A DNA stretch of 64,000 bases from Pristiophorus japonicus (taxonomy: Eukaryota), in contig NC_091984.1 of NCBI RefSeq assembly GCF_044704955.1, forward strand, positions 148,056,001 through 148,120,000. The letters run 5' to 3'. Below the pieces are notes generated by a model. It saw nothing but the letters and a program-made list of their open reading frames with translations, made no database searches and had not been told where the DNA came from. How positions within the stretch are numbered: the stretch's first letter is position 1; each line of letters opens with the position of its first letter. Made by a program: the position numbers and the translations under genes. Shown here one piece after another: positions 5,633 through 27,929 of the stretch.

Positions 5633-6892
5633 CCTGATCTGGCGGGCCGTAATGGGGGATTTCTCATTCTCAAATGCCTCCATGACCATAAGCAAGTCCG
5701 CTGGCTGTGCCATTTCCACCCCAGTGGTGGGCAACGGTAACCGACTGAGAGCATCTGTGCAGTTCTCTGTGCCCGGTCTGTGGCGAATTACACAGTTGCA
5801 TGCCAACAGCATGAGCACCCATCTTTGGATGCAGGCAGAGGCATTGGTATTTATCGTTTGCTCTCTGAGAACAGCGAAATGAGCGGCTTGTGATCTGTTT
5901 CAAGTTCGAACGTCAGGCCAAGCAAGTACTGGTGCATTTTTTTTACAATGTAAACACAAGCCAGAGTCTCTTTTTCAATCATGCTGTAGGCCCTTTCGGC
6001 CTTGGACAAACTCCTAGATGGATATGCAACCGGTTGCAAAATCCCCAATTCATTAGCCTGTTGTAAAACACACCCGAACTTGTATGATGACGCATCGCAA
6101 GCTAACACTAGTCGTTTACATGGGTTATACAGGACAAGCAGTTTGTTAGAACACAGTAAATTTCTGGCTTTCTTAAAAGCAGCCTCTTGTGAATTCCCCC
6201 ATACCCAGTCGTCTCCCCTGCGCAGTAGCGCATGCAAGGGTTCTAGTAGGGTGCTTAACCCAGGTAGGAAATTACCGAAGTAGTTCAGGAGTCCCAGAAA
6301 CGACGGCAGTTCTGTGGTCACAGCGTGTTCTTGATGGCCTCCGTCTTGGCGTCGGTCGGTCTGATGCCATCTGCTGCGATCCTTCTTCCTAATAATTCAA
6401 CCTCCTGTGCCAGGAATACACACTTTGAGCGTTTCAACCTGAGCCCCACGCGATCCAACCGACTAAGAACCTCATCCATAGTGCTCCATAGTGTCCCAAC
6501 CTGTAACCAATATGTTGTCCTGGAAGACCAGTGTACAAGGAACCGACTTTAGCAGGCTTTCCATGTTTTGCTGGAAGATTGCTGCAGCCGACCGAATCCC
6601 GAACGGGCACCGGTTCTAAATGAATAGACCTTTGTGCGAGTTGATGCAGGTGGGGCCTTTTGAAGACTCCTCCAGCTCCTGCACCATGTAGGCCGAGGTC
6701 AGGTCCAGCTTGTGAACGTCTTCCCTCCAGCAAGGTCGCAAAAGGGCGTCTGCCTTGGGTAGCGAAAAACGGTTCATTGTTACTTTATAGTCACCGCAAA
6801 TTCTAACTGTACTGTCCTCCTTGAGTATGGGAACAATCAGGCCGGCCCAGTGTTGAATTCCACCGGCGCGATGATGCCCTCACGTTACAGCC

Positions 6893-7368
6893 TGTGGAAG
6901 AAAACGATCTCTGTAGTATGGTAAAGGGAAGGGTTAAAATCACTTCTTGCTGATATTGTAGAAATAATGGAGCTAGAGAAAACACCCAAACTTCTTTGTC
7001 TTGAGAAAACAAAAATTGATTATCTGTTCCCTGCATGAGTCTCCTAAAACTGATTATTGACACAGACAGGGAGAAACTGATTATTGACACAGACAGGGAG
7101 AAATTATGCAAGAACAGATAATGTGTGCCTTCCGGGATGACCTTTGTATTCTCGGAGTAATATGATTAATGTTAATGTGTGGAATTTGAAGATAAAACTC
7201 CTCTTTTTACTGTATAAATATGGCGCGGGTTTTCCTGTAAAAGTCAGAGTTCTGCCTTAGTGTGGACTAAGCGGGCTCTCCGAGATATCTCGTTAGAAAT
7301 AAACTTTCTCTCGAAGCACGGCTCTGAAAGTCTCCGCTGAGTTAATTTAAGCTAAAATTTCTTCGACA
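6893..7368 (+). repeat. ERV 5' LTR
   Basis: TGTGGAAG...CTTCGACA; 27-bp U3 tandem repeat (AAACTGATTATTGACACAGACAGGGAG x2); TATAAATA ~7213; AATAAA ~7298. Confidence 0.97.
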
Positions 7369-7373
7369 GATTC

Positions 7374-7392
7374 TGGCGTAGTCAGGCAGGAT
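7374..7392 (+). promoter_or_regulatory. Primer-binding site complementary to tRNA-Ser
   Basis: TGGCGTAGTCAGGCAGGAT versus the complement of the vertebrate tRNA-Ser 3' end, TGGCGTAGTCGGCAGGAT (one extra A). Confidence 0.8.
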
Positions 7393-7713
7393 CTCTAAAA
7401 ACGAGATCCAAAAGAACCAAATTTAACTTTGAAAAGAGAAAAGAGGAATTTTAAGGACCTTCCTAGCTGAAAGGGGGAAGGTACCAAGGCCGTCCTAGCT
7501 AAAAGGGGGACGAGCCACCAAGATCCCTTGAAGGGTGAGGCATTTAAGGTAGCTACCACAAAGAAGCTAAAATAACAAGAAAGCAATAAGGAGACCCCGA
7601 GCTGAGCGGAAAAGAGAACACCGGTGAGCGCTTTGTAAAATATTACTGTATATTTTGTCGGAGTGTCCTTAATTCTCATTTCAGAAAAATCGCGAGACAT
7701 CGCACCCGGAAGA

Positions 7714-9414
7714 ATGGGAAACAGCTCTAGTCGAGCAGGGCGCTCGCGCCCAGCTCCTAGAAAAGGAAAGAAAGACGACCCCTTGACCAAAGGAATGAAA
7801 TTACATTCTAAAACCGAAAAGAGAATCCGTAAGGTAGTAAAGCAACGAGAGAAGGTAGGAGATCCAATTGTGCCGCCCGGCTCGCCGGCGGACACTGTAA
7901 TTAAAGAAACAGGAGATGACCGATACGCGGTAACGTTTAGTAGCGATTTGTACGGTTGGTCTGATGGGGATTGGCCATATGGAGGAAGTTTTAAACTATC
8001 TTTAATTGAGGAATGGAGAAAAATAACCAAGGAAGGAGGGGGAGACCCTACTTGGGACAAGGATTACATGGAAAATTGTTTTAATAAATGGATTGAGGTT
8101 GCTAAGAGACATCAGCCTCCGAAAAATAAAAATTCGGAGAATAAATCAGGAGGAAAAGAAAAGGGGGAAAATGAAAAACCTCCCTCTTATAGCCCTCCAA
8201 ACCTCCCTATCCCCTCAGCACCCACTGTGGGACTTTATCCTCGTATAGAACCCCCAAAGCGAAATAGCTGGCAGGAAATTATAGAAATGGTTATTGCCCA
8301 TAGAGATCAAGCCCAGAGAGAACTAGCTGTCCTCCCGGCCCCACCACCTAATGGAGGAGCCGATGGAGGAAACCCGGAGGTATTAGGAGCAGGGGCTGAA
8401 GCAGCAGAGGGAGGGGAAGTCAATCAGAGATCTGGGATGAGTTCTCGACTAAGGTCGCAAACAACCCCAGCCCAGGCAGAAGCCGACTCTACCCTCCTCC
8501 TCCAAAATCCCAGGGTAATGATAGGAACCACAGCGGTTTTAAAACCCTGGTCCCCGGGAGAGGCCAGAGATATGATCTCTGCCGCCCCAAACCCAGTAAA
8601 GAAACCTATAGCATTTCACAACTGGCTTGAGCAGACATGTACGATTTACAATCCGCTACCGGGGGATATTAAATTATTATTACAAGCAGCCTACGGATCC
8701 TCCTGGCAGGGAGTAAAAGATATGTTCTCGATCCCGCCAGGAGAAAGGGAGGATTGGAGAGTTGATGATACCTTGCTGGACAACGGCAATGAGTCATTAA
8801 CTCACTGGCTGCAACATAGGGGAAAAAATGCAATTCTGAAGGGAGCTAAAAAACATGGGGACATTGGGGAAGTCAACCGCTGTCTGCAGAAAGCGGAAGA
8901 ATCAATGATAGATTTCGCAGGCAGGTGGAAAAATAGCTGGGACGAGCATGCAGGAATACCCTTGGATCAAAACGAACTTTTAGCAGTGCAGACTTTGTTG
9001 AATTGTATGTTACCACAGCATGCCAGAACGTACAAGATCAAGGTCTTGGACTGGCAAGGAAAAAACTGGAAGGAAACAATTACAGTACTGGCAAACATGG
9101 ACAGGGAGGGACTATTTACCTACAAAGATAACAAAGCCAAAACAGCAGGACAATACTATCAGCAGAAAGGAAGAGGACAAGCACAGAATAGAGGAGGGTT
9201 TGGGGGAAGGAGGGGAGGAGGAAGAGGACAGTGGTCCCAGCGAGATCGCTCGCAAGATGAGTGTAGAAATTGCGGAAGGAAGGGGCACTGGGCTCGAGAT
9301 TGTAGGTGCCCACCTAAACAGTTTGGAGGGTTACAGGGGAATTTCCCCGAACCTACACCTCCACTGGCCCCTCAATTTTCCTTTTCTAACCCCAACCCGC
9401 ACCAATCAGCATAG
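7714..9414 (+). CDS. gag: Retroviral Gag
   Basis: ATG at 7714 gives MGNSSS (myristoylation motif); PPSY, PSAP and LYPRI late-domain motifs; single CCHC knuckle CRNCGRKGHWARDC; ends in TAG. Confidence 0.93.
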   Translation: MGNSSSRAGRSRPAPRKGKKDDPLTKGMKLHSKTEKRIRKVVKQREKVGDPIVPPGSPADTVIKETGDDRYAVTFSSDLYGWSDGDWPYGGSFKLSLIEEWRKITKEGGGDPTWDKDYMENCFNKWIEVAKRHQPPKNKNSENKSGGKEKGENEKPPSYSPPNLPIPSAPTVGLYPRIEPPKRNSWQEIIEMVIAHRDQAQRELAVLPAPPPNGGADGGNPEVLGAGAEAAEGGEVNQRSGMSSRLRSQTTPAQAEADSTLLLQNPRVMIGTTAVLKPWSPGEARDMISAAPNPVKKPIAFHNWLEQTCTIYNPLPGDIKLLLQAAYGSSWQGVKDMFSIPPGEREDWRVDDTLLDNGNESLTHWLQHRGKNAILKGAKKHGDIGEVNRCLQKAEESMIDFAGRWKNSWDEHAGIPLDQNELLAVQTLLNCMLPQHARTYKIKVLDWQGKNWKETITVLANMDREGLFTYKDNKAKTAGQYYQQKGRGQAQNRGGFGGRRGGGRGQWSQRDRSQDECRNCGRKGHWARDCRCPPKQFGGLQGNFPEPTPPLAPQFSFSNPNPHQSA

Positions 9415-12400
9415 GGATGCCCTGGAGGTGTAGTGGTACAGGCGGCAACCCTCCGCTTATCTACAGACATAGAAGAGAATCCTTTGGCAGTAATAAAACT
9501 GGGAAACACTGATGTAAAGTTTCTGGTGGATACCGGTGCTACTATGTCTTCTGTACCACCCTCTGTGGGATTACCTGTAAGCAACACTACCGTCTTGAGC
9601 ATGGGAGTGGCCGGTATCCCCCTGAAAGAATTTTTGTCCGAACCTACTAAATTGACAATTGAAGGACACCAAGTAGATAATGAGAGTTTGATAGTCTCTC
9701 AAACAGCCCCTCTCCCCTTATTAGGAAGACAGACTTTGTGCAAACTAGGAGCCACAATATATTGCACAAAGGAAGGGATGTTCATGGAGCTCCCTCAAAA
9801 TAAAATCCATCAGTTCTTTGATGGGATTAAAAGGGAGGAGGGGGAAGATAACAAAGAAAAGGCTGCCCTCTATTGTTGGCAATTGAGTGACAACTTCTAT
9901 TCCCCCCTGATACAGGATATTGTAAAAAACTTAAAAGCTAAATTTGACTCTAATGCGGACGAACTGATGTATATCATCTTAACAAGCTTTGAGGCGGTTC
10001 AGCTTCACTGCACAGCCTGGTACACTCGACAAAAAGCTGAAACTTACCAGTGCTTAATACAGCCCTTTCTAGATAAAGAAGAGATAATAGAAGCTACACC
10101 CCGCATTTATTTCGGACCAGAAGGATTAGGGGTAGCCATGGATTTGACACCCTTACAGCAGAAGCGGTTTAAAGAAGAGAACTCGACACCCCATCTGACA
10201 TTGGCTGTAAAACCGCTGGCGAAACCCAAAGATATGGGTCCGATGATTGTAGAAATAGAAAAGGAGAAGCAGCATCAAGGCTATAGACCTTGGGCAGTAA
10301 TAGAATTACAGAATGTCCAGATAGCATTTATCACCCGTTCCAGGGGAATTCTCCAGTGGAAAGGTAAAAGTTATGCCTCCACCTTTAAAAAACAGCAACC
10401 CCCTGGACAACCGAGCCCTAAGCTGCCAATGGCATTGAATCAAGTGTCTTCTGAACTTTGGGCAAAACATAAGAATCATGTTGGGAAGGTACATTCTGCA
10501 GCACCCCACCGGGTACGACTGATAAAGAACGCCGTGTTACCAAGCATTAAGCAGTACACACTGCCTCCAGAGGCAGAAGATGGGATAGAGCCAGTCATTT
10601 CTGCATTGTTGGAACAAGGAGTTCTAGAAAAGACACAGAGCCCGTGTAACACTCCGATACTGCCCATACCAAAGGTTAATAGGCCGAATGAGTGGAGATT
10701 TGTGCAAGATCTAAGAGCTATTAATAAGATAGTAGTCCCTATCACCCCTGTGGTACCGGACACCAACATTGTGCTATCTGCCATCCCACCAACAGCAACT
10801 GTCTTTACTGTGATAGATTTGTGCTCAGCCTTTTTCTCCATCCCAGTAAATCAAGAGAGTCAGTATCTGTTTGCTTTCACCGACAAGAAACAGCAGTACA
10901 CATGGACCCGGTTGCCCCAAGGGTACACCGAAAGCCCCGCAGTATATGCAGCAGCAGTAAAAAGAGACCTAGAAGACTGTTTATTATCAGACCAGTCTGT
11001 ACTGTTACAATATGCGGATGATTTGCTTGTGGCTTCCAGCCACGGATACAGATGCATGCAAGATTCCCTGAAATTATTACAACACCTATGTGAAAGAGGG
11101 CACCGAGTATCATTACAAAAGCTACAATTTTGCCAGACTCAAGTCCAGTACCTGGGTTTCCACATATCTCAAGGGCAGAGGCAGCTAGGACCCGAAAGAA
11201 TTCAGACTATTCAGAGTATCCCCATACCAAAGACAAAAAAGGATATTTTGTCTTTTTTGGGGATGGTTGGGTACTGCAGACAGTGGATCCCTGATTATCG
11301 AGAATGGGATGCGGTCCTAAGATCAGCTGCCCTAAATGATGCCCCACCCAAGGTAGAGTGGACCCCAGAGAGGGAGGAGGTGTTTGAACAGTTAAAGAAA
11401 GCTATCACTAACGCTCCGGCATTGGGACTTCCAAACTATTCTAAACCCTTTCAGATGTATGTGAATGAGAAAGAAGGATTTGCAACGGCGGTATTAACCC
11501 AAGAACATGGTGGGGGAAATAGACCAGTGGCCTATTATTCGGTTTTACTTCCTCCAGTAGTGAGGGGAATGCCAGCATGTCTACGCGCTGTAGCCGCTAC
11601 TGCGGTCATGGTGGAGAAGTCAGTACCTATTGTTTTGGACTATCCGTGTACTGTCGTTACAGCTCATGCAGTGCTATTACTATTGAACTCTGCCGCCACC
11701 CAGCATTTCACAGCATCTAGAAGAACAGGTTATGAAGTACTGCTGCTATCACACTCTAACTACACCTTTCAACGCGCGCCGATAGTAAACCCCGCCACTT
11801 TTGTTCCCACTAGAGAAATAGAGGATCCAGACCAGCATGACTGTCTGTTAACAGTGGAATTAGCCACCTTGCCGAGACCAGATTTGCTCACAGAGCCCAT
11901 GGACAATCCTGATCTCATTCTCTATACGGATGGGTCATCGTACAGACCATCAGATAATTTGCTTTTGTCAGGCTATGCAATTGTAAGCCCCCATGAAACT
12001 GTTGAAGCATTTGCCCTGCCTCCTGGAACCTCGGCTCAGGCTGCTGAATTATTTGCCCTCACCAGAGCTTGTATAATAGCAAAAGATCAAACTACCAATA
12101 TCTATACTGATTCTAGATATGCATTCGGTGTGGTCCATGATTTTGGACAACTATGGAAAAACAGAGGCTTTATCACCTCTGGTGGAAAGCATATTAAGCA
12201 CTCTCAATTGGTGCTTAATCTATTAGACACCATTCAGTTGCCAAATAAGGTAGCCGTTATCAAATGTGCAGCACACACAATCGGTGAGGATGAAGTGTCA
12301 GTGGGAAATAGGAGGGCTGATGAAGCAGCCAAACAGGTCGCTTCGGCACAGACAGACTGCCTTCAAGCAGTCTCAGTCACCCTTCCACAGACACTTGACG

Positions 12401-13548
12401 TCCAACTACTTAAAACAGCCCAACAACAAGTTACTATGCAAGAAAGAAGGACTTGGGAAAACCAGGGTTGCTTTCTAAAAAATGACATTTGGTATCACCC
12501 TGATGGGCGAACTGTTTGCCCTAGATCTCTATTCTTGCCCCTGTCTCGCCTAGCACACGGTCAGGCTCACATGGGCAAAGGAGGGATGATGCATGCTATT
12601 AATGCACAGTGGTATGCACCAGGAATAACAGTGGTAATTGAAAAAGTTGCTAGAACATGCCAAATTTGTCAACAAAATAACAGAGGTAAAACACCTGCTG
12701 AATATGATCATCTACCCCAGCCAAGTATGCCCTTTGAAAATTTGCAAATTGATTTTGTCCACATGCCTCCAGTATCAGGTTTTAAGTACCTATTAGTCAT
12801 AGTAGACATGTTCACAAGGTGGGTAGAAGCGTACGCCACGAGGAGAGACGATGCCCGAACAGTAGTAAAGATTCTATTTAAAGAAATAGTACCAAGATAT
12901 GGGATACCTATGGGAATCAACAGTGACAGGGGAACACACTTCACCGGAAAAATAGTGCAAAATCTTGCAGAAGCGTTAGGTTTCCAGTGGAAGTTACATA
13001 TACCATATCAACCTCAGTCTTCAGGAATAGTAGAGAGAGTAAATGGGATAATAAAATCTACCCTTACCAAGGTATGTAAGGAGACAGGATTAAAATGGCC
13101 AGACGCCCTACTGTTGGTACTATATACATTAAGAAACCAGAAAAAACGAAACACTGGTTTGACACCGCATGAAGCCTTATTGGGAAGGCCAATGCCTACC
13201 GGAGTAAAACCACCACTGGTAGCGGAAAAGGTAGCATTAATTTGGAATGATGAAAAATCACTAAAGTATGCTCAGGCCATGTGTAAAATAGCAAGAAGTC
13301 TGCATGAACAGATAAAGCAGACACAGGTGCCCCTGTTGGAAGGAAATATGCACCCATTCAAGCCAGGAGACCAAGTGTTAGTGAAAACATTAAACAAAGA
13401 ATCTTTTTCTCCTAGGTGGAAAGGACCGTATCAGATAATTCTCACGACGAGAACGGCATTGAAATTGGAAAAGCATCCAAACTGGGTGCATGCAACCCGT
13501 TGTAAATATTACTTCCCCAACAAATCACAGCCAAAAGAAGAGACATAG
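9415..13548 (+). CDS. pol: Retroviral Pol (PR - 2H phosphoesterase-like insert - RT - RNase H - IN), in frame with gag after TAG
   Basis: FLVDTGA; LPQGY..QYADD; YTDGS/SAQAAEL/YTDSRY; HHCC, QIDF..SDRG..VER and WKGPY. No stop codon in ~1377 codons. Confidence 0.96.
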   Translation, partial: GCPGGVVVQAATLRLSTDIEENPLAVIKLGNTDVKFLVDTGATMSSVPPSVGLPVSNTTVLSMGVAGIPLKEFLSEPTKLTIEGHQVDNESLIVSQTAPLPLLGRQTLCKLGATIYCTKEGMFMELPQNKIHQFFDGIKREEGEDNKEKAALYCWQLSDNFYSPLIQDIVKNLKAKFDSNADELMYIILTSFEAVQLHCTAWYTRQKAETYQCLIQPFLDKEEIIEATPRIYFGPEGLGVAMDLTPLQQKRFKEENSTPHLTLAVKPLAKPKDMGPMIVEIEKEKQHQGYRPWAVIELQNVQIAFITRSRGILQWKGKSYASTFKKQQPPGQPSPKLPMALNQVSSELWAKHKNHVGKVHSAAPHRVRLIKNAVLPSIKQYTLPPEAEDGIEPVISALLEQGVLEKTQSPCNTPILPIPKVNRPNEWRFVQDLRAINKIVVPITPVVPDTNIVLSAIPPTATVFTVIDLCSAFFSIPVNQESQYLFAFTDKKQQYTWTRLPQGYTESPAVYAAAVKRDLEDCLLSDQSVLLQYADDLLVASSHGYRCMQDSLKLLQHLCERGHRVSLQKLQFCQTQVQYLGFHISQGQRQLGPERIQTIQSIPIPKTKKDILSFLGMVGYCRQWIPDYREWDAVLRSAALNDAPPKVEWTPEREEVFEQLKKAITNAPALGLPNYSKPFQMYVNEKEGFATAVLTQEHGGGNRPVAYYSVLLPPVVRGMPACLRAVAATAVMVEKSVPIVLDYPCTVVTAHAVLLLLNSAATQHFTASRRTGYEVLLLSHSNYTFQRAPIVNPATFVPTREIEDPDQHDCLLTVELATLPRPDLLTEPMDNPDLILYTDGSSYRPSDNLLLSGYAIVSPHETVEAFALPPGTSAQAAELFALTRACIIAKDQTTNIYTDSRYAFGVVHDFGQLWKNRGFITSGGKHIKHSQLVLNLLDTIQLPNKVAVIKCAAHTIGEDEVSVGNRRADEAAKQVASAQTDCLQAVSVTLPQTLDVQLLKTAQQQVTMQERRTWENQGCFLKNDIWYHPDGRTVCPRSLFLPLSRLAHGQAHMGKGGMMHAINAQWYAPGITVVIEKVARTCQICQQNNRGKTPAEYDHLPQPSMPFENLQIDFVHMPPVSGFKYLLVIVDMFTRWVEAYATRRDDARTVVKILFKEIVPRYGIPMGINSDRGTHFTGKIVQNLAEALGFQWKLHIPYQPQSSGIVERVNGIIKSTLTKVCKETGLKWPDALLLVLYTLRNQKKRNTGLTPHEALLGRPMPTGVKPPLVAEKVALIWNDEKSLKYAQAMCKIARSLHEQIKQTQVPLLEGNMHPFKPGDQVLVKTLNKESFSPRWKGPYQIILTTRTALKLEKHPNWVHATRCKYYFPNKSQPKEET

Positions 13549-13681
13549 AACTAGGACGTACTACGGTTACCTACCCGAGAAGACGGCCATCTTCTCACCA
13601 AAGAACTGTACTGACCCCTCTTTTGTGACCCTTCGCAAGGGTACATTGAACCTAAAATAAGACACCCAGAGTTCAGGCCAG

Positions 13682-13828
13682 ATGTCAGAACTTGCTTGTA
13701 TGCCAATTTGGGCCTTTATTATTTGGATCACTGTTACCCTCGTGCTTGCGTGCTGTTATTTTAACAAATTAATACAGGAGTGTTATAGAAACAGAGAAAA
13801 AAGGGAAGATGAGGCGGAAAAGCTGTAA
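13682..13828 (+). CDS. Putative 48-aa single-pass membrane accessory protein overlapping the env start
   Basis: Hand translation MSELACMPIWAFIIWITVTLVLACCYFNKLIQECYRNREKREDEAEKL*; shorter than any ORF in the supplied track; preceded by a splice-acceptor-like site at ~13639. Confidence 0.55.
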   Translation: MSELACMPIWAFIIWITVTLVLACCYFNKLIQECYRNREKREDEAEKL

Positions 13829-15296
13829 GCGGACATTGGGCATTCTGATCATTTTAGCAGTAGGAAGAGTCAGACAGGAAGAAGGAAAAGAATGGAAGGG
13901 AGATATGGAGTGGGAAAGAAGTGATAGGTCAGAACGGCAAGATAACTTTGTATGCCCAGAAGGAAAAAATTGTAAAATAGGGAACTTCACAGTAATGTGC
14001 AAAGCTTGTGGAGTGGGGAAAGGCATAAAAATAAGAAATGCCTGGGATGAAGGATTACAGCAATTGCAGGTATCAGGTTATATCACAGACGAAATGACCT
14101 GGGGGCAGAATGAAAAGATAGAGAAGGAAATAGAAAACCTAATGAAGGAACAAAAGGAAGTAAATAAGTACACCCATTGCATGTTCAGGGAGATGATCAG
14201 ACAGTTACTGAGAGCCGAGCTAGAAAGGAAAGTACTATCCTTCCATGCTAACACATGGGAGAGATTACTGGAAATCAATCAGAAAGATAAACTTCTAAAT
14301 TTAACCATTAAACCCCAAGAAAAATATACTGGTTGCGATTTAAAAGGATGTAACATCACTATGGAAATAGTAAATAAGACAAAAGGAGAAATATGGTGTC
14401 AGTTCCAAGTAATACCCCAGTTGTTCGGACGAAACTTCTGGTACCCAGAATTTAAAGGAGACTGGGTTGATGAAAAGAATCTAACACATCACGACAGGGG
14501 ATGTGCTAGGTGGCCGTTCGGAATGGTGTGTCCCTATCAGACTGCCATACACGAACCATGCTCTCTACAGCACCCCACTGGAATATGTAGATGGGAACTA
14601 AAACCAACCAATGACACCGATATTTCTGAAGTAGGACAGAATGAGGTCTGCCTGACGGGAAATAGACCTGTCTACCTGGACGGAATTCTGTATAAACCCC
14701 CCATTAATACATGTGTGAGAGAAGTCTACACCCTGTATGATCCAGAAGAAAGAAGAACTTATACTTTTGGGCAGTGGCAGAATGTAGTAAAATATCTGTC
14801 TGTGCACAAAATTGATCCTTTACCCCCTGTAATTAATTTGACCAGATTGCACAATTTGATAAAAAATGACAAACAAATAGAGGAGGCTCTGTCCAAAAGG
14901 GGCCAAGACATCCACCAGTTCAAAATAGAAATGAGTTACAAGAAGGGACAACTAGTAAGAATCGCGAATGCAGTCACCTCCCTGACAGTACACCACTGGT
15001 GGGATGTGTTTTCCGGATGGTCCCCCAAAGCTTCAGCAGTACTGAAGCTTGCTATATACCCCATAGTAATCGTAGGTGTGGTTATGCTTATATTACTAAT
15101 AATCATGTGTGGGATGTGGATAAAAGTAAAAAGGCTAATTAACCAGGTAATGGGCCTAGTATCCCAAGTAGAAGGGAAAAGTATGTTTGTGAAAGGAAGG
15201 TTAAGCCGCATAGAAGAAAAATTAGATGAATATGACGAAGTAGAATGCCTCAAGATGCGACCCTACCCCGAAGGATATGAACCCCCTTTTCAATAA
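13809..15296 (+). CDS. env: Envelope-like glycoprotein (class III/ERV-S-like TM region) with no obvious furin site or fusion peptide
   Basis: Signal-like N-terminus, N-glycosylation sequons, Cys-rich ectodomain, HHWWDVFSGWSP before a long TM helix; lies just before the PPT and 3' LTR. Confidence 0.85.
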   Translation: MRRKSCKRTLGILIILAVGRVRQEEGKEWKGDMEWERSDRSERQDNFVCPEGKNCKIGNFTVMCKACGVGKGIKIRNAWDEGLQQLQVSGYITDEMTWGQNEKIEKEIENLMKEQKEVNKYTHCMFREMIRQLLRAELERKVLSFHANTWERLLEINQKDKLLNLTIKPQEKYTGCDLKGCNITMEIVNKTKGEIWCQFQVIPQLFGRNFWYPEFKGDWVDEKNLTHHDRGCARWPFGMVCPYQTAIHEPCSLQHPTGICRWELKPTNDTDISEVGQNEVCLTGNRPVYLDGILYKPPINTCVREVYTLYDPEERRTYTFGQWQNVVKYLSVHKIDPLPPVINLTRLHNLIKNDKQIEEALSKRGQDIHQFKIEMSYKKGQLVRIANAVTSLTVHHWWDVFSGWSPKASAVLKLAIYPIVIVGVVMLILLIIMCGMWIKVKRLINQVMGLVSQVEGKSMFVKGRLSRIEEKLDEYDEVECLKMRPYPEGYEPPFQ

Positions 15297-15331
15297 AGAA
15301 AAAGAAACTGTGTTGATCGGTTATAAAGATC

Positions 15332-15345
15332 AACAAGGAGGGAGT
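15332..15345 (+). promoter_or_regulatory. Polypurine tract
   Basis: AACAAGGAGGGAGT directly before the 3' LTR TG. Confidence 0.8.
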
Positions 15346-15821
15346 TGTGGAAGAAAACGATCTCTGTAGTATGGTAAAGGGAAGGGTTAAAATCACTTCT
15401 TGCTGATATTGTAGAAATAATGGAGCTAGAGAAAACACCCGAACTTCTTTGTCTTAAGAAAACAAAAACTGATTATCTGTTCCCTGCATGAGTCTCCTAA
15501 AACTGATTATTGACACAGACAGGGAGAAACTGATTATTGACACAGACAGGGAGAAACTATGCAAGAACAGATAATGTGTGCCTTCCGGGATGACCTTTGT
15601 ATTCTCGGAGTAATATGATTAATGTTAATGTGTGGAATTTGAAGATAAAACTCCTCTTTTTACTGTATAAATATAGCGCGGGTTTTCCTGTAAAAGTCAG
15701 AGCTCTGCCTTAGTGTGGACAAAGCGGGCTCTCCGAGATATCTCGTTAGAAATAAACTTTCTCTCGAAGCACGGCTCTGAAAGTCTCCGCTGAGTTAATT
15801 TAAGCTAAAATTTCTTCGACA
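15346..15821 (+). repeat. ERV 3' LTR
   Basis: Same length as the 5' LTR; ~7 substitutions counted by eye. Confidence 0.97.
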
Positions 15822-17411
15822 CAGCCTGTCCAGCTCGATTTCCACTTTTTCACGCTTCATGTACGGTACCGCCCGAGCCTTGTGGTGGATCGGTCGCGTA
15901 CCAGGAACCAAATGGATCTGCACTTGCGTCCCCGAGAAACTTCCAATGCCTGGCTCGAATAACGATGAGAACTTGCTTAGAACCTGGGTACATGCGGTGT
16001 CATCAACTGACGAAAGCGCTCGGATGTTGTCCCAGTTCCAGCGGATTTTCCCCAGCCAGCTTCTGCCAAATAACGTGGGGCCATCCCATGGCACAATCCA
16101 TAGCGGGAGTTCGTGTACTGCTCCATCATAGGAGACTTTGACTTCAGCACTGCCAATTACCGAGATTAGTTCCCTTGTATAAGTCCTTAACTTCGTGTGA
16201 ATGGGGCTGAGCTTGGGCCTGTGTGCAATGGCTGCAGAACAATGGGACACTTCCAACGAATGTGCAGGTGAGCTACAAACCCTGCAAACCCTGCAAATTA
16301 CCACGTTGCAGAGGAAGATCGGTCCACAGTGGAGCAGACAGATCTGGGTGCCTTCTTCCCCCACAGCCTGTCGAAGGCTGTTTTACTCATTATGGACTGA
16401 CTTGCTCCCGTGTACCGCTCCATTGACACTGGAATACCATTCAGTTCAACTTTCAACATTATTGGTGGGCATTGCGTCGTGAACGTGTGTACCCCATACA
16501 CCTCTGCCTCCTCAGTATGAGTTTTCAATTCCATCTGATCCACTGTGGACCGATCTTCCTCTGCAACGTGGTGGTTTGCAGGGTTTGCAGCTCGCCTGCA
16601 CATTCATTGGAGGTGTCCCATTGTTCTGCAACCATTGCATACATAGTGCTTAAAGCGGCATTGATGGGGCCGATGATCACCTCCGCAGCACCAACAGGGT
16701 GTTAACTGCCTCGTATTAACAGATGATGACGGATTCTGGGTCAATTGAGGTCAGGCCACAGCAGCCGGTGTGTACATTCTGCCATGTACATTTCTGCTCA
16801 AAACCGACGTTACTTTATGCACAGTACTGGCCAAAACTTCTTTGTTCTGCGAAATCTGCTTGGTGTTGCCGCTGGTGGACATAAATGCTTAGGCTATCGT
16901 TATGGCTTTATTCAGATTTGCTGTTTCTACAGTCAACAAGCTTGCGAAAGATTGTCTCATGTCCAATGCCCAGTACAAAAAAGTCTCTGAGCATTTGTTC
17001 TCGGAATGCCTCAAACTCACAATGTTCTGCAAGGTGCCTTAGTTCGGTGACGTAGCTCGCCACTTCCTGGTCCCCCGATCGTTGACACGTGTATAACCAA
17101 TATTTCACCATCAAAAGGCTTTCCTTAGGATTTAGGTGCTCCTGGACCAGCGTACACAGTTCTTCATAGGATTTATCTGTTGGTTTAGCCGGGGCCAGGA
17201 TATTCTTCATGAGGCCATAGGTAGTGGCCCTACAGACGGTTAGGAGGATCGCCCATCGTTTGGTTGCATTCTCGTCCCCTTCCAGCTTGTTGGCTAAGAA
17301 GTATTGGTCGAGTCTCTCCACATAGTCCTCCCTATCATCCCCCTCCGAGAACTTCTCCAGGATGCCAACTGTTCTTTGCATTTACGCGCGGTTCGTTATC
17401 TCGTCACCAAT

Positions 17412-22218: not shown

Positions 22219-25200
22219 CGTCCACCTCCTCTCGTACCCTTGGCTCGATTCGCTCCTATAAAGACAAAAATTAAAGAAATACCTTTGCTCTGTGGGGCCT
22301 CCCCCTCACAGGTCCTCCTTCAGTTATTCACAAATGTACGTAACTCCTTTTTACAACCACTGCTTCCCTCTCCTTTTATCCCAATGCTTGGGCTTACAGA
22401 GGCTCGGGGGTGGAGATGGAGGAGGTGTCCAGGGCACCCTAGGTCACAGTACCTGACCACTCCACCTTACTGCTCCGTCCCTTACTTCTCCATCCTCATC
22501 ATCCCACAGTATTGGTGGGAGGCTTACACTGATCAAACTCATTATTGTTCGTGGGGCCTTGGCCCGCTTTTTACGTTTCTCTCCGGGGTTGTACAGCTTA
22601 CACTGGTTTATATGGAACCATTTTATATGTTTTGGCAGCTGGATCATGTACACCATAGGGCTTGCCTTGTCTACAATGCTATATGATCCTTTGTACAATG
22701 GTTCAAATGCCCCTATTCTGGCATAATTCCTGACCATTACCTGATCTCCTGCCCTCCATTCCTGTGTAACCCAGAGTTCCAGCAGCAGTTTATTCTGCTG
22801 GTGCTGCCTGCCCATATTGTTAGCTGCTTCCCAATGCAGCCCCTTCAGAGTACCATACAGATCTAACAAACCTGCCCCATGTGATCTCTTTAACCTGCGT
22901 TTCAGTCAGGACTGGTGCTAGGATATGGGTCGGGGTCATCATTAGTCTCCCTGTCATCATCACATGTGGGGAGTGTCCCGTACTCTTAGAGAGACTGGCT
23001 CAGTGGCTCATCAGTATTCGGGGTAGGGTCTCACCCCATTTCTTCGGGGTATCTCCTATTTCCTTCCTAAGCCTCTCTTTTAAGGTCCGGTTTGTCCTCT
23101 ACTGGATCTAACGATTGGGGGTTATACGCCACATGCCATTTCCCCTGTATCCCTAACAGCTTTAGGGTGGCCTGCATTACTGCTCCGGTGAAATGACTCC
23201 CTTGATCTGATTCCACTATCAGGGTCAGTCCCCATTGAGAAAATACTTCTCGCACCAGAACCTTTGCTGTGACTATCGCGGTGGCCGCCCGGCATGGAAA
23301 AGCTTCAACCCATTTTGTAAAGAGATGTATTAACATAAGCAATATTTATTGCCTCTGCCTGAGGTGGGCAGTGACCCAATTAAATCTATCTGTATAGACT
23401 GCCATGGCCCCTCTACCCTCCTCGTGTGTCCCAATGGAGCCTTCCTCGGTGGGGGTCTGGATTGTTTGTGGCACATACCAGACAATTCTGGCAATAATCC
23501 CTGACATCACTTCTAAGCCCGGGCCACCATCCCACGGCTTCTACTTTATTCCACATTGTTTCTGGCCCTGGATGTCCAGCTCCTGGACCCACATGCACCA
23601 GCTGCAAGAATTCTTCCCTGCACTGCCCTGGCACGATCCAACTATCTCCCTTGAACAACATTCCTTGCTTTACTGCTATGTCTGCAGCTCCCAAAGGTCC
23701 CACTGCAGACTTCCCGTCTATTTTGTCCCTAATCGCTGCTCTAAGGTTTGCATCCCGTAGCTGAGCCTGTTTTAAATCAGGCGGCAATGGGACTTCTTTG
23801 GGCCTCTCTCTGCCTGTTACAGCCGTGATCTGTCCACAGTGATATGGGTCCCAAGGTGTCTCTTCTCCTGCCCCTGTTTTAGCCAGTGTGTCTGCTTTCT
23901 CATTCCCTTCCCACTTGGGCTCTGTCTTAGAGTGTGCTTTGACCTTTTGGATGTCGTCACCCTTCTGGTCCGTACCCTTGACGTGCAAAATGACTTTTAA
24001 CAATGGAACCATCACCAACCATTTTCCATCTGAGGACTTAAACCCTCGCCTCGCCAATATGGCTAAATACTCTGTTCAGGAGTTAGAAATGAACATGGAG
24101 TCTGAACATATCGTATAGGGAGTTGGGAATTCGTTCGGGTGTGTGACTACATACGCTACTGCTGCTAGCTCGGTCTGCTGCGTACTTAAAGTGTTGGGGA
24201 TTTTATGGCTTTCTCCATCACTGCCTCTGGATCGTAAATCCCACAGCCTGTCTTTCTCTCTCTGTTTATTACTGAACTAGACCCATCTACATAGACGTCC
24301 CTGCCTGTCAGGTGTTCTCCTGCTCAGAATCCCACATCTACATCCCACACTCCTTCCACTGAACACACATGAGCTGCTCCCGGATAAACCAGGCTCGGGG
24401 CGAGCTTTGGTTCTCCTGACCTCTCGACCTTCAGGTCTAACTGAGTAAGCAACAATGTCCAGCGGGCAATCCTGTTACTGCTCACTGTCCCATCTTTCAT
24501 TCTACCATCCAGTAACACTTGTGTCGTGGTGTGACAGGTCAGTAAAGTTACTGTAGCTAACCCTGTGAGCGACCGAAAATGCTTCACTGCCCAAAATGTT
24601 GCTAACAGATGTCGTTCGCAATTCGAAAAGCTCTTTTCTATTTCGATGAGATCTCGGGAGGCGTAGGCCACTGGTCTCAGCTTGTCGTGTCGCTCCTGGA
24701 ATAACACTGCACTCAAACTGTCCCCAGTCATTGCTACCTCCAGACTAAAATCCTGGTCCCCATTTACTGCTCTCGATGCTGGTGCTGTCTGTAACACCGC
24801 TTTTAACCAAATGAAAGTTTCCTGACAAGTCTCACTCCATTCCCACTCTACTCCTTTCCGAAGAAGCCTCAACAAAGGAGCTGCCACGGTTACATATTCC
24901 TCTATGAATTCCCTGCAGTAACCCTTTTTCCCAGGAAAGACCTTACTCCAGACACGTCCTTAGGAACAGGTAGTTCCTGGACTGACTTTCTCTTAGCTCT
25001 ATCTATGGCCCTTTCTCCTGCCCCAATGGTCAAACCTAGAAACTGCACCTCCTCTTTGCCTATTTGAACTTTCTTGGGACTGACTTTAAAATCTGCTTCT
25101 TTCAACAAATGCAGTAACTCACTGAATAATGGCCCGTGGTCCTCCGCACTTTCGGAGAATAACAACAGGTCGTCCACGTATTGGACCAACCGATCTGGCT

Positions 25201-27929
25201 GACTAAAACCGTTTAATGCCTCGGCCATACTCTGGTGGAAGATCGAGGGACTGTTGTGAAACCCTTGTGGAAGACATGTCCACGTATACTGCTGACCTTT
25301 AAAGGTAAAGGTAGATTTATACTGGTCCTCCCGTCTCAGCGGAATGGACCAAAACCCGTTTGAAATGTCCCGCACGGTGAAAGTTGTTGTGGCCGCAGGG
25401 ATACTCCCGATCAAATCCGCTACCACTGCTACCGTGGGCGCACAGGCTGGAATATTTTTTATTCAGGATTCGGTCATCTACCGTGGCCCTCCATGAGTTA
25501 TCGGGCTTCTTTACTGGCCATAGGGGTTAGTTTACATGTGTGGCTATGGTCCTCAACGCACCTTGATCCACCAGGGAATTTATAGCAGTTTCCAAATCAC
25601 TTTCTGCTTCCCGGGGAAAATTATACTGTTTCTGGGGTCGTGTCATCGAATCCCCATCTATCTTCACCTCTACCCCAGATACTATCCCGCAATCGTGCTT
25701 GTGCATTGCAAACGCATCCATATTCTCCCGTACATACCTTGATACCGGGCCGGAATGTTATCGACTAATCGTTCTCAGTCATAACTCCCTTTCGGCTTCA
25801 TCGTGCAGGTGCTGCCTTTGTCTGTACTGTCCCTGGGAATCACTACGATCTCTCCCATATTATCTGCATCAAATGCCCCCCATAGACAATTGTTTTCCAT
25901 ATCCACTATGGTGTGGTGTGTCAACATGTAGTCGGCCCCGAGAACTCCCGAACCGGGCTGTTCCCACTTCATTAAAATGCCCTCCCATTTCATTATGTTC
26001 GGTCCTAACTCTACGGTTAAGGGTTTCCACACTGCCCCAGCCTGCTCATTACCCGTAAAACCCACCAGTGTAAATGGTACTCCGCTCAACCTCGGGGAAG
26101 TGGTCGGATTCGGTGAGTGGACAACCGTGCTAGAGGCTCCTGTATCTACTAGATCCCTTCCCCTAACTGTTTCCACCTTCACATCCACACATGGCCTGCC
26201 CCACCCATCATATATGAGCAGACACAGGTATTCTGGCTGGGTGCACCGTCACAGAGGGGGTGCCAACACATTGGGTCCCTTTTCTCCCACTGCTGCGTCC
26301 AGCTTTCCTCCACCCGTGCCCATAACCTGCTGTAATGCGGCCACTAAAACCTGCACTGGGTCGTCGGCTACCTTCTTCTGGCCTTTTCCTGCCTCAGCAC
26401 CTCGTACCCTGGCTTCCCTCCTTTAGAGAGCCTACAATCCTTGCTCCAGTCTCCCAACTTCCCACAGTTAAAACACTCACCTTTAGATCGACCCGCATTA
26501 CCTCCCTCTTGTCTCCATTCTTTCTATGGCCGAACCTCTCCTTTTACTTCGTGCACCTTCCCGTTTAGTTTCTCCTCCTCCCCTTGCCTAGACTTAAAGC
26601 TAGAGTTAGTCTTCTCAGCACCCCTGCCTCTGTATTCTGGAGATGGTCTGGGTCAAACCATGCTTCAACCTTTGCTCTGAGCCGTGGCAAACTGTTACCA
26701 TTACGGTTCTCAGCCAATGGTCCCTGGGTTCCCCTATTAAATCTGCCCGTACCAGATTTCCTCCAGCGGCCCTGAAATAAATCGCCCACAGTCTGTCTGC
26801 AAACGTATCGGGCGATTCGTTTACTTGCTGCCTAGTCTGTTCTACCTGCCAGAACGGACTACCCTGACTGTACCCGAGCACTGCCATCATTTGCTCCTTT
26901 AAGCCCTGTGGGGTTCCTGCACCTAACTTGGTGGCTGTCGACAAGCTCTGATAAAGCTTCCCCTCCAGCGAGAGCAGTGTTAGCTTCACTTTCTCCTCCT
27001 CGCTGCAGTTATTGATACCCCCTATCTGCTCTATATTAGTAAAATGAACAGAGACATCTCCTCCTTGCTTTAACTGTACTACACCCGTCAGCATCTCTTG
27101 CAGCTGAAGCGGTGTGTATGGGATCACTAGTCGCTCTGTAATGGTGCCGGACCACCATTTGGTGGGGGTGGGCTGAATTTCTGCTGTCTCAAAGGACACA
27201 TCGGTTTCAGGGGTCCCGGTGCCTCAGGAGCCGGCCGATGCTCGCGATACTCGGGCCCATCGTCTGACTCTTTCCCCTCTGGATCCCAATCTTCCTCACC
27301 TGTTCCGGGTGCCCTGAGACAAACCATCCCTTTGGTCCCGTCTAACTCTGCCGTTAATTGGTGGATCTTTTCCTTACAAGGTCCGTGATCTGCTCTTGCG
27401 TAACCCTGTTTCTGAGCTACCTGATAGGCTATCGACTCTCCTGAGCTGGTCCTCTGCCTCTTTGGCTCTTTCTAAATGCCTTTCACTTTGTTCAATGTGG
27501 GTCTGCTGCTGCTTTTTGCACTCGGTCACCTGGCATTGTAAATACTCAAAGTGATTCCGTGCCGTTTCTTCCTTCCCACCCTGGTCCTGCCTTTCCTTCT
27601 CCAAACTGCCTACCTCGCCCTTTAACCCTTTATTCTCCTTCTCCAGCTTTCCTATCCTTTCTCTTAACAGTTGTGTCTGCTTCTGCAGGCACATGAGCCA
27701 AACCTCCTTCTCTTTTGACCCTTTGTGGTTACTACTGACTGTCCACTCTGCTGTTTGTTCCTGCGGATCCCCAGAGTGCAGCATTTCCCGTGCCCATGGC
27801 CCTGAAATGTTCAATTTATTGCCTATATATCCAGCTACCTTAGCCTCCATGGACTCCCTACGACTGCTCTTACCCGCGGACTCTGCCACGTTTTGCTGCG
27901 GTGAGTCCATTTCCAGTGCCTCTGGCTGA

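What the first reader, a model, noticed from the sequence alone, without database searches (positions are those of the whole stretch)
13809..15296. Open env of class III type on a class I-type pol, lacking furin site and fusion peptide
Seen: 495 aa with no R-X-K/R-R in the ectodomain, no hydrophobic fusion peptide and no gamma-type ISD/CX6CC. Only ~50 aa follow the signal before a heptad-like helix (IKIRNAWDEG..). The Cys-rich body and HHWWDVFSGWSP-TM resemble, from memory, ERV-S/class III (paramyxovirus F-like) TM subunits. Inference: env was acquired by recombination from another retroviral class. It then either suffered an in-frame deletion near GVGKG|IKIRN (~14025) or is a naturally non-fusogenic, interference-type protein.
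Basis: partly seen in the sequence, partly recalled or inferred. Interest (0 to 1): 0.7.

Follow-up and report, generated by a model that had tools for sequence, protein, structure and literature searches.

The report
Shark retrovirus envelope with internal deletion
A young endogenous retrovirus, likely of a sawshark, has lost a 543-base piece of its envelope gene that holds the cleavage site and fusion peptide in sister copies, so it is likely a broken copy; the family's envelope is predicted to fold like foamy-virus and paramyxovirus fusion proteins, which is unusual on this kind of retrovirus.

Summary
The 495-aa env ORF is real and lacks an R-X-K/R-R site, fusion peptide and CX6CC. The cause is a 543-nt in-frame deletion at an 8-nt direct repeat (window 14012-14019). 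Sister copies, 96-99% identical, carry a polybasic furin site and a Gly-rich fusion peptide there. So this is not a naturally non-fusogenic envelope. Env deletions recur: 19 of 60 sampled family copies lack that region. This deletion sits at two separate insertion sites, and one of them is frameshifted. Pol is class I-like (MLV RT 493 bits, foamy 198). The envelope is not gamma-type. It belongs to a Pfam-less family reaching from sharks to mammals that includes chicken Ovex1 Env, and it is predicted to have the foamy/paramyxovirus F fold. 'Class III type' is a mislabel: HERV-S carries a class I envelope, and walleye epsilonretroviruses already have a non-gamma Env. An old envelope swap is plausible, direction unknown. 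Verdict: ordinary decay of one provirus. The interest lies in the family: an F-like envelope on a class I pol, plus a conserved small membrane-protein ORF before env.

The parts
6888..6892 (.). 5-bp target-site duplication (repeated at 15822-15826); the provirus interrupts a Ty3/Gypsy-like element on the minus strand
   Evidence: flanking minus-strand ORFs 5851-6396 and 15795-17381 (Gypsy label from recalled motifs)
6893..7368 (+). 5' LTR, 476 bp, 7 mismatches to the 3' LTR (1.5%)
7374..7392 (+). primer-binding site; tRNA-Ser-like by recall, not tested
   Evidence: sequence
7717..9414 (+). gag, 565 aa, one CCHC knuckle, ends in TAG in frame with pol (read-through layout)
9415..13548 (+). pro-pol, open (1377 codons): protease, RT (YADD), tether, RNase H, integrase with MLV-type C-terminal domain; class I-like
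9760..10440 (+). insert of about 225 aa between protease and RT with two H-x-T motifs (2H-phosphoesterase-like by recall); no Pfam match
13682..13828 (+). small ORF (48 aa here, mostly 51 in sisters): one predicted membrane helix plus a charged tail, overlapping the env start in another frame; candidate accessory gene
13809..15296 (+). env, open, 495 aa: signal peptide, about 50 residues of SU, then the fusion subunit without its first ~35 residues
14012..14019 (+). junction of the 543-nt in-frame deletion (8-nt direct repeat); the lost 181 codons hold most of SU (6 Cys), the furin site, the fusion peptide and the start of the first heptad
14229..14840 (+). Cys-rich beta core of the fusion subunit, predicted fold of domains I/II of foamy Env and paramyxo/pneumovirus F
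15042..15119 (+). membrane anchor, preceded by the HHWW motif
15346..15821 (+). 3' LTR, preceded by a purine tract at about 15335-15344

Best explanation
This is a young class I-type endogenous retrovirus whose env lost 543 nt in frame, removing the furin site, the fusion peptide and most of SU that its sister copies carry, so its protein is likely non-fusogenic and likely a decay product with no job of its own. Shown: the deletion, its 8-nt repeat junction, intact motifs in sisters, the same deletion at two separate insertion sites with shared substitutions, and many other env deletions in the family. Inferred: the deletion arose once by template switching at the repeat during reverse transcription. 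The deleted genome was then copied again, either inside the cell (gag and pol are open here) or in particles supplied with envelope by other copies. One insertion was later duplicated with its flanks. The frame is open because one deletion in three keeps frame and the element is young. Predicted: the family's envelope is a class Ib (F-like) fusogen, in which SU strands complete the core, so the remnant would probably misfold. It reached this class I lineage, or was lost from its neighbours, by an old envelope swap.
For:: 73 DNA matches from 40 scored candidates (of 702). 10 span the window env without a break; many others split at query 452-463; the deletion is 543 nt in L001-L004, with an 8-nt repeat at both ends in 8 of 8 full-size sisters printed; a full-size sister env of 679 aa has a polybasic site followed by a Gly-rich peptide; an R-X-K/R-R plus Gly-rich motif in 16 of 18 relatives from other species; of 60 copies picked by RT, 23 have large env deletions (24 by script; L073 is full-size on inspection) and 19 lack the furin/fusion-peptide region. 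Other deletion sizes are 559 (5 of 6 loci measured; L010 seen by blast), 1655 (3 loci) and 976 (joint in 4 of 4 runs). Only 1 of these 4 sizes is in frame. L001-L003 share one insertion site; L004 has another site, another TSD and a frameshift; 12 substitutions link the two sites, 4 of them in no other copy; env changes in the three duplicates are 6 non-synonymous of 11, against 0.67 in sisters (P=0.28). Fold: NDV F E 1.5e-7; core against foamy Env Z 7.3, rmsd 4.8, 161 aligned, and the top 8 of 48,161 chains are all foamy Env or F.
Against: Both deletions in this copy (543 and 9 nt) keep frame, and env is open in all three duplicates. Env differences since the duplication are 2 non-synonymous to 4 synonymous (P=0.10). 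The window copy has 15 private changes in pol and none in gag or env (about 2e-4 by hand, post hoc). That is unexplained and could be conversion between copies. The fold scores are middling: Z 7.3 is within the range of chance best hits, and TM-scores are 0.2-0.5. The wide search with the full model was led by unrelated coiled coils, with NDV F at rank 15. Misfolding, template switching and the copying route were not tested.
Confidence: 0.86

Rival explanations
1. The deleted env is being kept by the host as a restriction factor. The remnant keeps the trimer core and anchor, and would act as a dominant-negative subunit or decoy against the family's intact envelope.
For: Open frame in three duplicates; 2 non-synonymous to 4 synonymous changes since duplication (P=0.10); no private env change in the window copy; the insertion has been duplicated.
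Against: Most of SU, which a receptor-blocking protein would need, is gone. The second insertion with the same deletion is frameshifted. gag and pol are as open as env. LTRs differ by only 1.5%. Selection is not significant.
Confidence: 0.08
2. A naturally non-fusogenic envelope type: the virus itself used an uncleaved, short Env.
For: The window sequence read alone lacks the motifs.
Against: Sisters 96-99% identical have 181 more codons with the cleavage site and fusion peptide. So do relatives in sharks, frogs, koala and birds.
Confidence: 0.01
3. The deletion or the three-fold copy is an assembly artefact.
For: L002 and L003 are 99.9% identical with shared flanks, and L003 is on a small contig, so one may be a second haplotype.
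Against: The same junction is at an unrelated insertion site, 98% identical over the whole provirus, with shared substitutions. The window and L002 differ by 0.4%.
Confidence: 0.03
4. The envelope was captured recently from a class III (spuma-like) virus by this very family.
For: Best core fold match is foamy Env. Ovex1, whose pol is SnRV/class III-like, has a homologous Env. An RT relative at 60% has a gamma-type TM. A second lineage in this genome has a related env on a pol only 32-36% identical (L129).
Against: 60 of 60 sampled copies and all subfamilies (env 57-97% identical) have this env. A horn shark protein is 45% identical. There is no sequence match to the foamy Env family. The same type is on class I GGLTR11 (PMC2717909). 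No donor was found. An old swap of unknown direction remains likely; only 'recent, from class III' is scored here.
Confidence: 0.05

Closest known systems
Chicken Ovex1 ORF3 Env (LOC422926), GGLTR11 and TERV envelopes
   Same: Sequence homologue: 23% over 457 aa, E 3e-15. Same furin plus Gly-rich peptide, Cys pattern and HHWW before the anchor. No ISD or CX6CC (PMC2717909, passages).
   Different: Ovex1 is an old single locus with an SnRV/class III-like pol and an 873-aa Env. This element is young, multicopy, class I-like, and its env is deleted.
Foamy virus Env and paramyxo/pneumovirus F (class Ib fusogens, PMC11468914)
   Same: Predicted core fold: long helix after the fusion peptide, beta-rich domains I/II, C-terminal heptad.
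   Different: No sequence match (PF03408 and PF00523 not hit; PDB profile search blank). SU is short (about 200 aa) and lacks the large foamy RBD. The pol is orthoretrovirus-like, whereas that paper places orthoretroviral Env in class Ia.
Epsilonretroviruses WDSV and WEHV
   Same: Class I pol with read-through and a non-gamma Env (PMC3758190, PMC9967133; passages). The full-length model hits WEHV1 Env (E 3.2e-8) and WDSV Env (E 4.8e-6).
   Different: Their Envs are 1159-1317 aa. TM-scores are low (0.10-0.23), and they are not among the 50 rows for the core-only model. No cyclin-like accessory gene was looked for.
Lokiretroviruses (PMC7947760)
   Same: Retroviral layout with an F-related Env and an RXKR site.
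   Different: Their Env hits PF00523 and their RT is sister to all other retroviruses. Here there is no PF00523 hit and the RT is MLV-like.
Env-deleted ERV sublineages (IAP from IAPE; 'env-less superspreaders', recalled; title seen only in a reference list)
   Same: Repeated env deletions that are copied to new sites.
   Different: This deletion is at only two insertion sites among those seen; no large expansion is shown.
HIV-1 vpu-env arrangement (recalled)
   Same: A small single-helix membrane ORF overlaps the env start in another frame.
   Different: No homology shown; layout only.

Membership tests
Class I (gamma/epsilon-like) ERV by pol | RT-RNase H closer to gammaretroviruses than to spuma or class II | tested here: met
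   MLV/XMRV 491-493 bits, foamy 198, 7sr6 polymerase 85 (HERV-K by recall), HIV 56-70
Class I (gamma/epsilon-like) ERV by pol | gag and pol in frame across a stop; zinc knuckle; MLV-type integrase C-terminus | tested here: met
   (PF00098, PF18697); in-frame read-through also occurs in some class III elements
Class I (gamma/epsilon-like) ERV by pol | RT tree groups it with named epsilon or gamma references | tested here: inconclusive
   groups with teleost ERV RTs (96/93) far from foamy-env elements, but no named WDSV, MLV, SnRV or ERV-S sequence was available
Gamma-type Env | ISD and CX6CC in TM; TLV_coat match | tested here: not met
   profile against a gamma-type TM has probability 0.5%
Class Ib (F-like) fusogen | furin site followed by fusion peptide and long heptad | tested here: met
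   in full-size sisters and relatives; not met in the window copy
Class Ib (F-like) fusogen | beta-rich domains I/II in the fusion subunit | tested here: met
   predicted only: core pLDDT 81.6; foamy Env Z 7.3, rmsd 4.8, 161 aligned; all 50 rows of the second look are foamy Env or F; NDV F E 1.5e-7
Class Ib (F-like) fusogen | N-terminal subunit contributes strands to the core | tested here: inconclusive
   model 162-568 aligns to NDV F 35-491, Z 8.3 but rmsd 23
Class Ib (F-like) fusogen | trimer; membrane fusion activity | not tested
   no complex job was run; activity needs bench work
Ovex1/GGLTR11/TERV-type Env | sequence homology over the fusion subunit, conserved Cys, HHWW motif | tested here: met
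   (E 5e-17)
Epsilonretrovirus (WDSV/WEHV) Env | homology to walleye virus Env | tested here: inconclusive
   fold hits with the full model, not listed with the core model; no sequence comparison was possible
ERV-S / class III element | class III pol | tested here: not met
   only foamy stands for class III in that library. HERV-S Env is class I per PMC4724089
Lokiretrovirus | Env matches PF00523; RT outside other retroviruses | tested here: not met
Co-opted Env restriction factor (Fv4, Refrex-1, suppressyn; recalled) | receptor-binding SU retained | tested here: not met
   about 50 of some 200 SU residues remain
Co-opted Env restriction factor (Fv4, Refrex-1, suppressyn; recalled) | env under purifying selection while gag and pol decay | tested here: inconclusive
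   P=0.10-0.28; gag and pol are open
Co-opted Env restriction factor (Fv4, Refrex-1, suppressyn; recalled) | expressed, fixed, orthologous across species | not testable with these tools
   no related vertebrate genomes are held; runs are of unknown kind

The most novel reading that the evidence does not exclude
Class I-type retroviruses from sharks to mammals carry a third, unclassified envelope type with the foamy/paramyxovirus F fold. It is the same type as Ovex1 Env, is probably kin to the uncharacterised walleye epsilonretrovirus Env, and is shared with an amphibian herpesvirus. It has been swapped repeatedly against the gamma-type Env. The shark family adds a Vpu-like small membrane protein ahead of env. 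This would break the rule that orthoretroviral Env is class Ia. (The further step, that this deleted copy is a host restriction factor, has about 0.08.)
Probability: 0.6. Interest if true: 0.55.

Novelty: new variant of a known kind. Interest (0 to 1): 0.36.

Why it matters
The flagged oddity is ordinary: a deletion. What is left matters for envelope evolution. Reviews set the epsilonretrovirus Env aside as uncharacterised (PMC3758190, PMC9967133), and a recent scheme puts orthoretroviral Env in class Ia (PMC11468914). A widespread Pfam-less envelope family with a predicted F fold on a class I pol gives that gap a testable candidate. It would also explain the unassigned chicken Ovex1 ORF3. Screens built on gamma- and beta-type queries would miss these elements. 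The small upstream ORF is a candidate accessory gene in a genome that otherwise looks simple.

Tried and rejected
Pfam and PDB sequence searches with the deleted env, the full-size env and a 59-sequence profile gave no significant hit. Of 30 relatives scanned, only two had any Pfam hit, both outside env. The word-based protein search found only 2-3 close proteins. The ESM Atlas gave no result. The wide structural search with the whole model was filled by coiled coils. Walleye Env was not listed for the core model. A gamma-type env on near-identical pol copies, the sign of a recent swap, was found in 0 of 60. A search for other lineages with this env type in the genome returned the same broad family in 19 of 20 loci fetched; L129 was the exception. 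The nucleotide tree of the env 3' part is star-like and does not group the deletion classes; the link rests on shared substitutions. Sequencing runs: no RNA holder listed. One search was laid on the wrong stretch (gag side) and says nothing on env. One search showed the 559, 976 and 1655 joints but not the 543 joint; contigs show presence, not absence. The tree row 'winGypsy0' is mislabelled: it is a second degraded retroviral pol, so the trees have no true outgroup. The 70-row tree is the quick one; the 26-row tree is a chosen subset. The PDB class test of the L129 RT did not run because of a stop codon. Literature: no paper held all of 'walleye dermal sarcoma', envelope, alphafold, paramyxo. 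The class-I-fusion/epsilonretrovirus search returned only Viro3D, which does not mention walleye or epsilon viruses in its main text. The 2H phosphoesterase search was blank. Subscription journals and all supplements were not seen, and Viro3D's data tables or Calcraft 2024 may already list these envelopes as F-like. No earlier scan finding matched.

Full report
Setting. The ORF is the env of a complete provirus at 6893-15821: LTRs of 476 bp that differ at 7 sites, a 5-bp target duplication, gag ending in TAG in frame with an open pol, then env. The closest named proteins are 99% and 73% identical and labelled Pristiophorus japonicus, so the host is likely that sawshark or a close relative. The family is large: an RT search returned 150 matches at 94-100%, which is the scoring limit.

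Observation. The 495-aa frame has no R-X-K/R-R, no CX6CC and no hydrophobic stretch between signal and anchor. Pfam and PDB sequence searches give nothing significant.

Why the motifs are missing. A search of the own genome scored 40 of 702 candidates. Ten matched the window env end to end and many others broke at the same point. Against a full-size sister, the window lacks 543 nt plus 9 nt near the start, both in frame. The junction is an 8-nt direct repeat at 14012-14019. The lost 181 codons hold most of SU with six cysteines, a polybasic furin site, a Gly-rich fusion peptide and the first turns of the heptad. Sixteen of 18 relatives from other species show a furin site followed by such a peptide. 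The 'naturally non-fusogenic' reading is therefore refuted.

The deletion is one of many. Six loci share a 559-nt deletion that removes SU and shifts frame, and three share a 1655-nt deletion. A 976-nt joint appears in contigs of 4 of 4 runs. The 559, 976 and 1655 junctions also sit at 5-7-nt repeats, as expected from template switching (established knowledge, not tested). Of 60 copies chosen by RT and not by env, 37 have a full-size env region, 23 a large deletion, and 19 lack the furin/fusion-peptide part (one row re-classed by eye). One of the four exactly sized deletions is in frame, about the chance rate.

History of this allele. The window, L002 and L003 share flanks and are 99.6-99.9% identical: one insertion, duplicated, with L003 possibly a haplotype. 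L004 has the same junction at another site with another target duplication, and its env is frameshifted. Twelve substitutions link the two sites, four of them absent from all other copies compared. So the deletion likely arose once and the deleted genome integrated at least twice. The env tree alone is star-like and does not show this.

Selection. Env changes in the three duplicates are 6 non-synonymous of 11, against a fraction of 0.67 in 24 sisters (P=0.28). Changes since the duplication are 2 to 4 (P=0.10); the baseline includes stop calls, some of which may be alignment noise. Against my reading: the window copy has 15 private changes in pol and none in gag or env. I cannot explain this; conversion between copies is one option. 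gag and pol are as open as env, so youth suffices. Co-option stays at about 0.08.

Pol class. RT-RNase H scores 491-493 bits to MLV/XMRV, 198 to foamy and 56-85 to class II enzymes. The integrase has the MLV-type C-terminal domain. In a 26-row tree the RT groups with teleost ERV RTs at 50-65% identity (96/93), apart from a gamma-env family of the same genome (about 40%) and from foamy-env elements. No named epsilon, SnRV or ERV-S reference was available, so 'epsilon-like' is an inference.

Env class. The full-size env has 107 relatives at E up to 0.001. Of the 30 looked up, 25 carry a name: horn shark (45%), basking shark, bichir, pipefish, frogs, a caecilian, turtles, birds, echidna, koala, marmoset, and a 928-aa Bufonid herpesvirus 1 protein. 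One is chicken LOC422926, which is Ovex1 ORF3 (23% over 457 aa). None of 30 scanned has an envelope Pfam hit, and the profile does not match a gamma-type TM. The model of the full-size env (pLDDT 72, pTM 0.47) hits paramyxo- and pneumovirus F in the PDB, best E 1.5e-7. In the viral library it hits a 928-aa unnamed entry, WEHV1 Env (3.2e-8), WDSV Env (4.8e-6), F proteins and feline foamy Env. The window's own core (pLDDT 81.6) matches foamy Env at Z 7.3, rmsd 4.8 over 161 residues, then RSV, hMPV, PIV and measles F. These scores are middling; the case rests on all top rows being one fold class. Walleye Env is not listed for the core model, so that link is open.

Is it a swap? An RT 60% identical from mackerel has a gamma-type TM with an ISD in one gene model, and a second fish model shows the same; both are chimeric gene models. 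A related env sits on a pol only 32-36% identical in this genome (L129). So env type and RT do not track each other. But 60 of 60 family copies have this env, so the swap is old and its direction unknown.

What is in print. All were read as search passages unless noted; no supplements were seen. Epsilonretrovirus Env is distinct and uncharacterised (PMC3758190), and is proposed to have replaced an ancestral gamma-type Env (PMC9967133). Ovex1 ORF3 lacks ISD and CX6CC, resembles class I GGLTR11 and TERV, and may differ in origin from its pol (PMC2717909). HERV-S and XtERV-S have class I envelopes. Lokiretrovirus Env is F-related (PMC7947760). Foamy Env is F-like, class Ib, with orthoretroviral Env put in class Ia (PMC11468914). 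Env-pol incongruence is common in fish and amphibians (10.1101/2021.11.23.469661, first of six parts read). Viro3D expects further retroviral F-like proteins. Passages of 10.1101/2024.03.17.585361, PMC12690878, PMC13524379, PMC13709493 and PMC10699275 added nothing on this family. My searches found no statement that Ovex1-type or walleye Env has the F fold. The library lacks most subscription journals.

A side finding. An ORF at 13682-13828 codes for one membrane helix and a charged tail, and overlaps the env start. Of 86 loci where its start was recognised, 80 keep 45-66 codons; some loci are the same provirus or recent duplicates, and copies without a recognised start were not counted. dN/dS between seven subfamily representatives is 0.11-0.83 (20 pairs, not independent). 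The other two frames have stops in 6 of 7 and 7 of 7. The layout recalls vpu-env (recalled); no homology is shown.

Verdict. The flagged feature is a deletion derivative, most likely ordinary decay (0.86). The family's envelope, a predicted class Ib fusogen on a class I pol, is the part worth following. Novelty: new variant of a known kind. Interest 0.36.

Noticed in passing
window 13682-13828: Conserved small membrane-protein ORF overlapping the env start, dN/dS below 1 between subfamilies; candidate accessory gene with a vpu-like layout.
   Followed up: partly
window 9760-10440: Insert of about 225 aa between protease and RT with two H-x-T motifs, 2H-phosphoesterase-like by recall; no Pfam match.
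   Followed up: partly
P0194; probably rank 1: A 928-aa hypothetical protein of Bufonid herpesvirus 1 is a weak sequence relative of this envelope (E 1.7e-6), suggesting exchange between retroviruses and an amphibian herpesvirus.
   Followed up: no
window 22564-25718 (-): A second, degraded retroviral pol, 29-40% identical to this one.
   Followed up: no
L129 (G000:C5:22710200-22719200): A distant ERV lineage with a related envelope (closer to Ovex1 Env, E 1e-22) on a pol only 32-36% identical.
   Followed up: partly
L011:1802-2779: A 976-nt env joint at high depth in 4 of 4 runs, a deletion class not met among the loci fetched; possibly an abundant non-autonomous form.
   Followed up: no
window 7717-15296 against L101/L102: The window copy has 15 private changes in pol and none in gag or env since the duplication; unexplained.
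   Followed up: partly
L032, L033, L052, L067: In some copies the small ORF runs in frame into env, giving an env frame with two N-terminal hydrophobic stretches.
   Followed up: no
L151-L162: The genome holds degraded foamy-like proviruses: 21 matches to PF03408.
   Followed up: partly
L016 3' LTR; window LTR about 7050-7105: A 27-bp unit in the LTR U3 varies in copy number among proviruses and is strongly expanded in L016.
   Followed up: no
P0145, P0133, P0140: Marmoset, koala and echidna genes encode long open members of this envelope family; whether any is co-opted was not examined.
   Followed up: no
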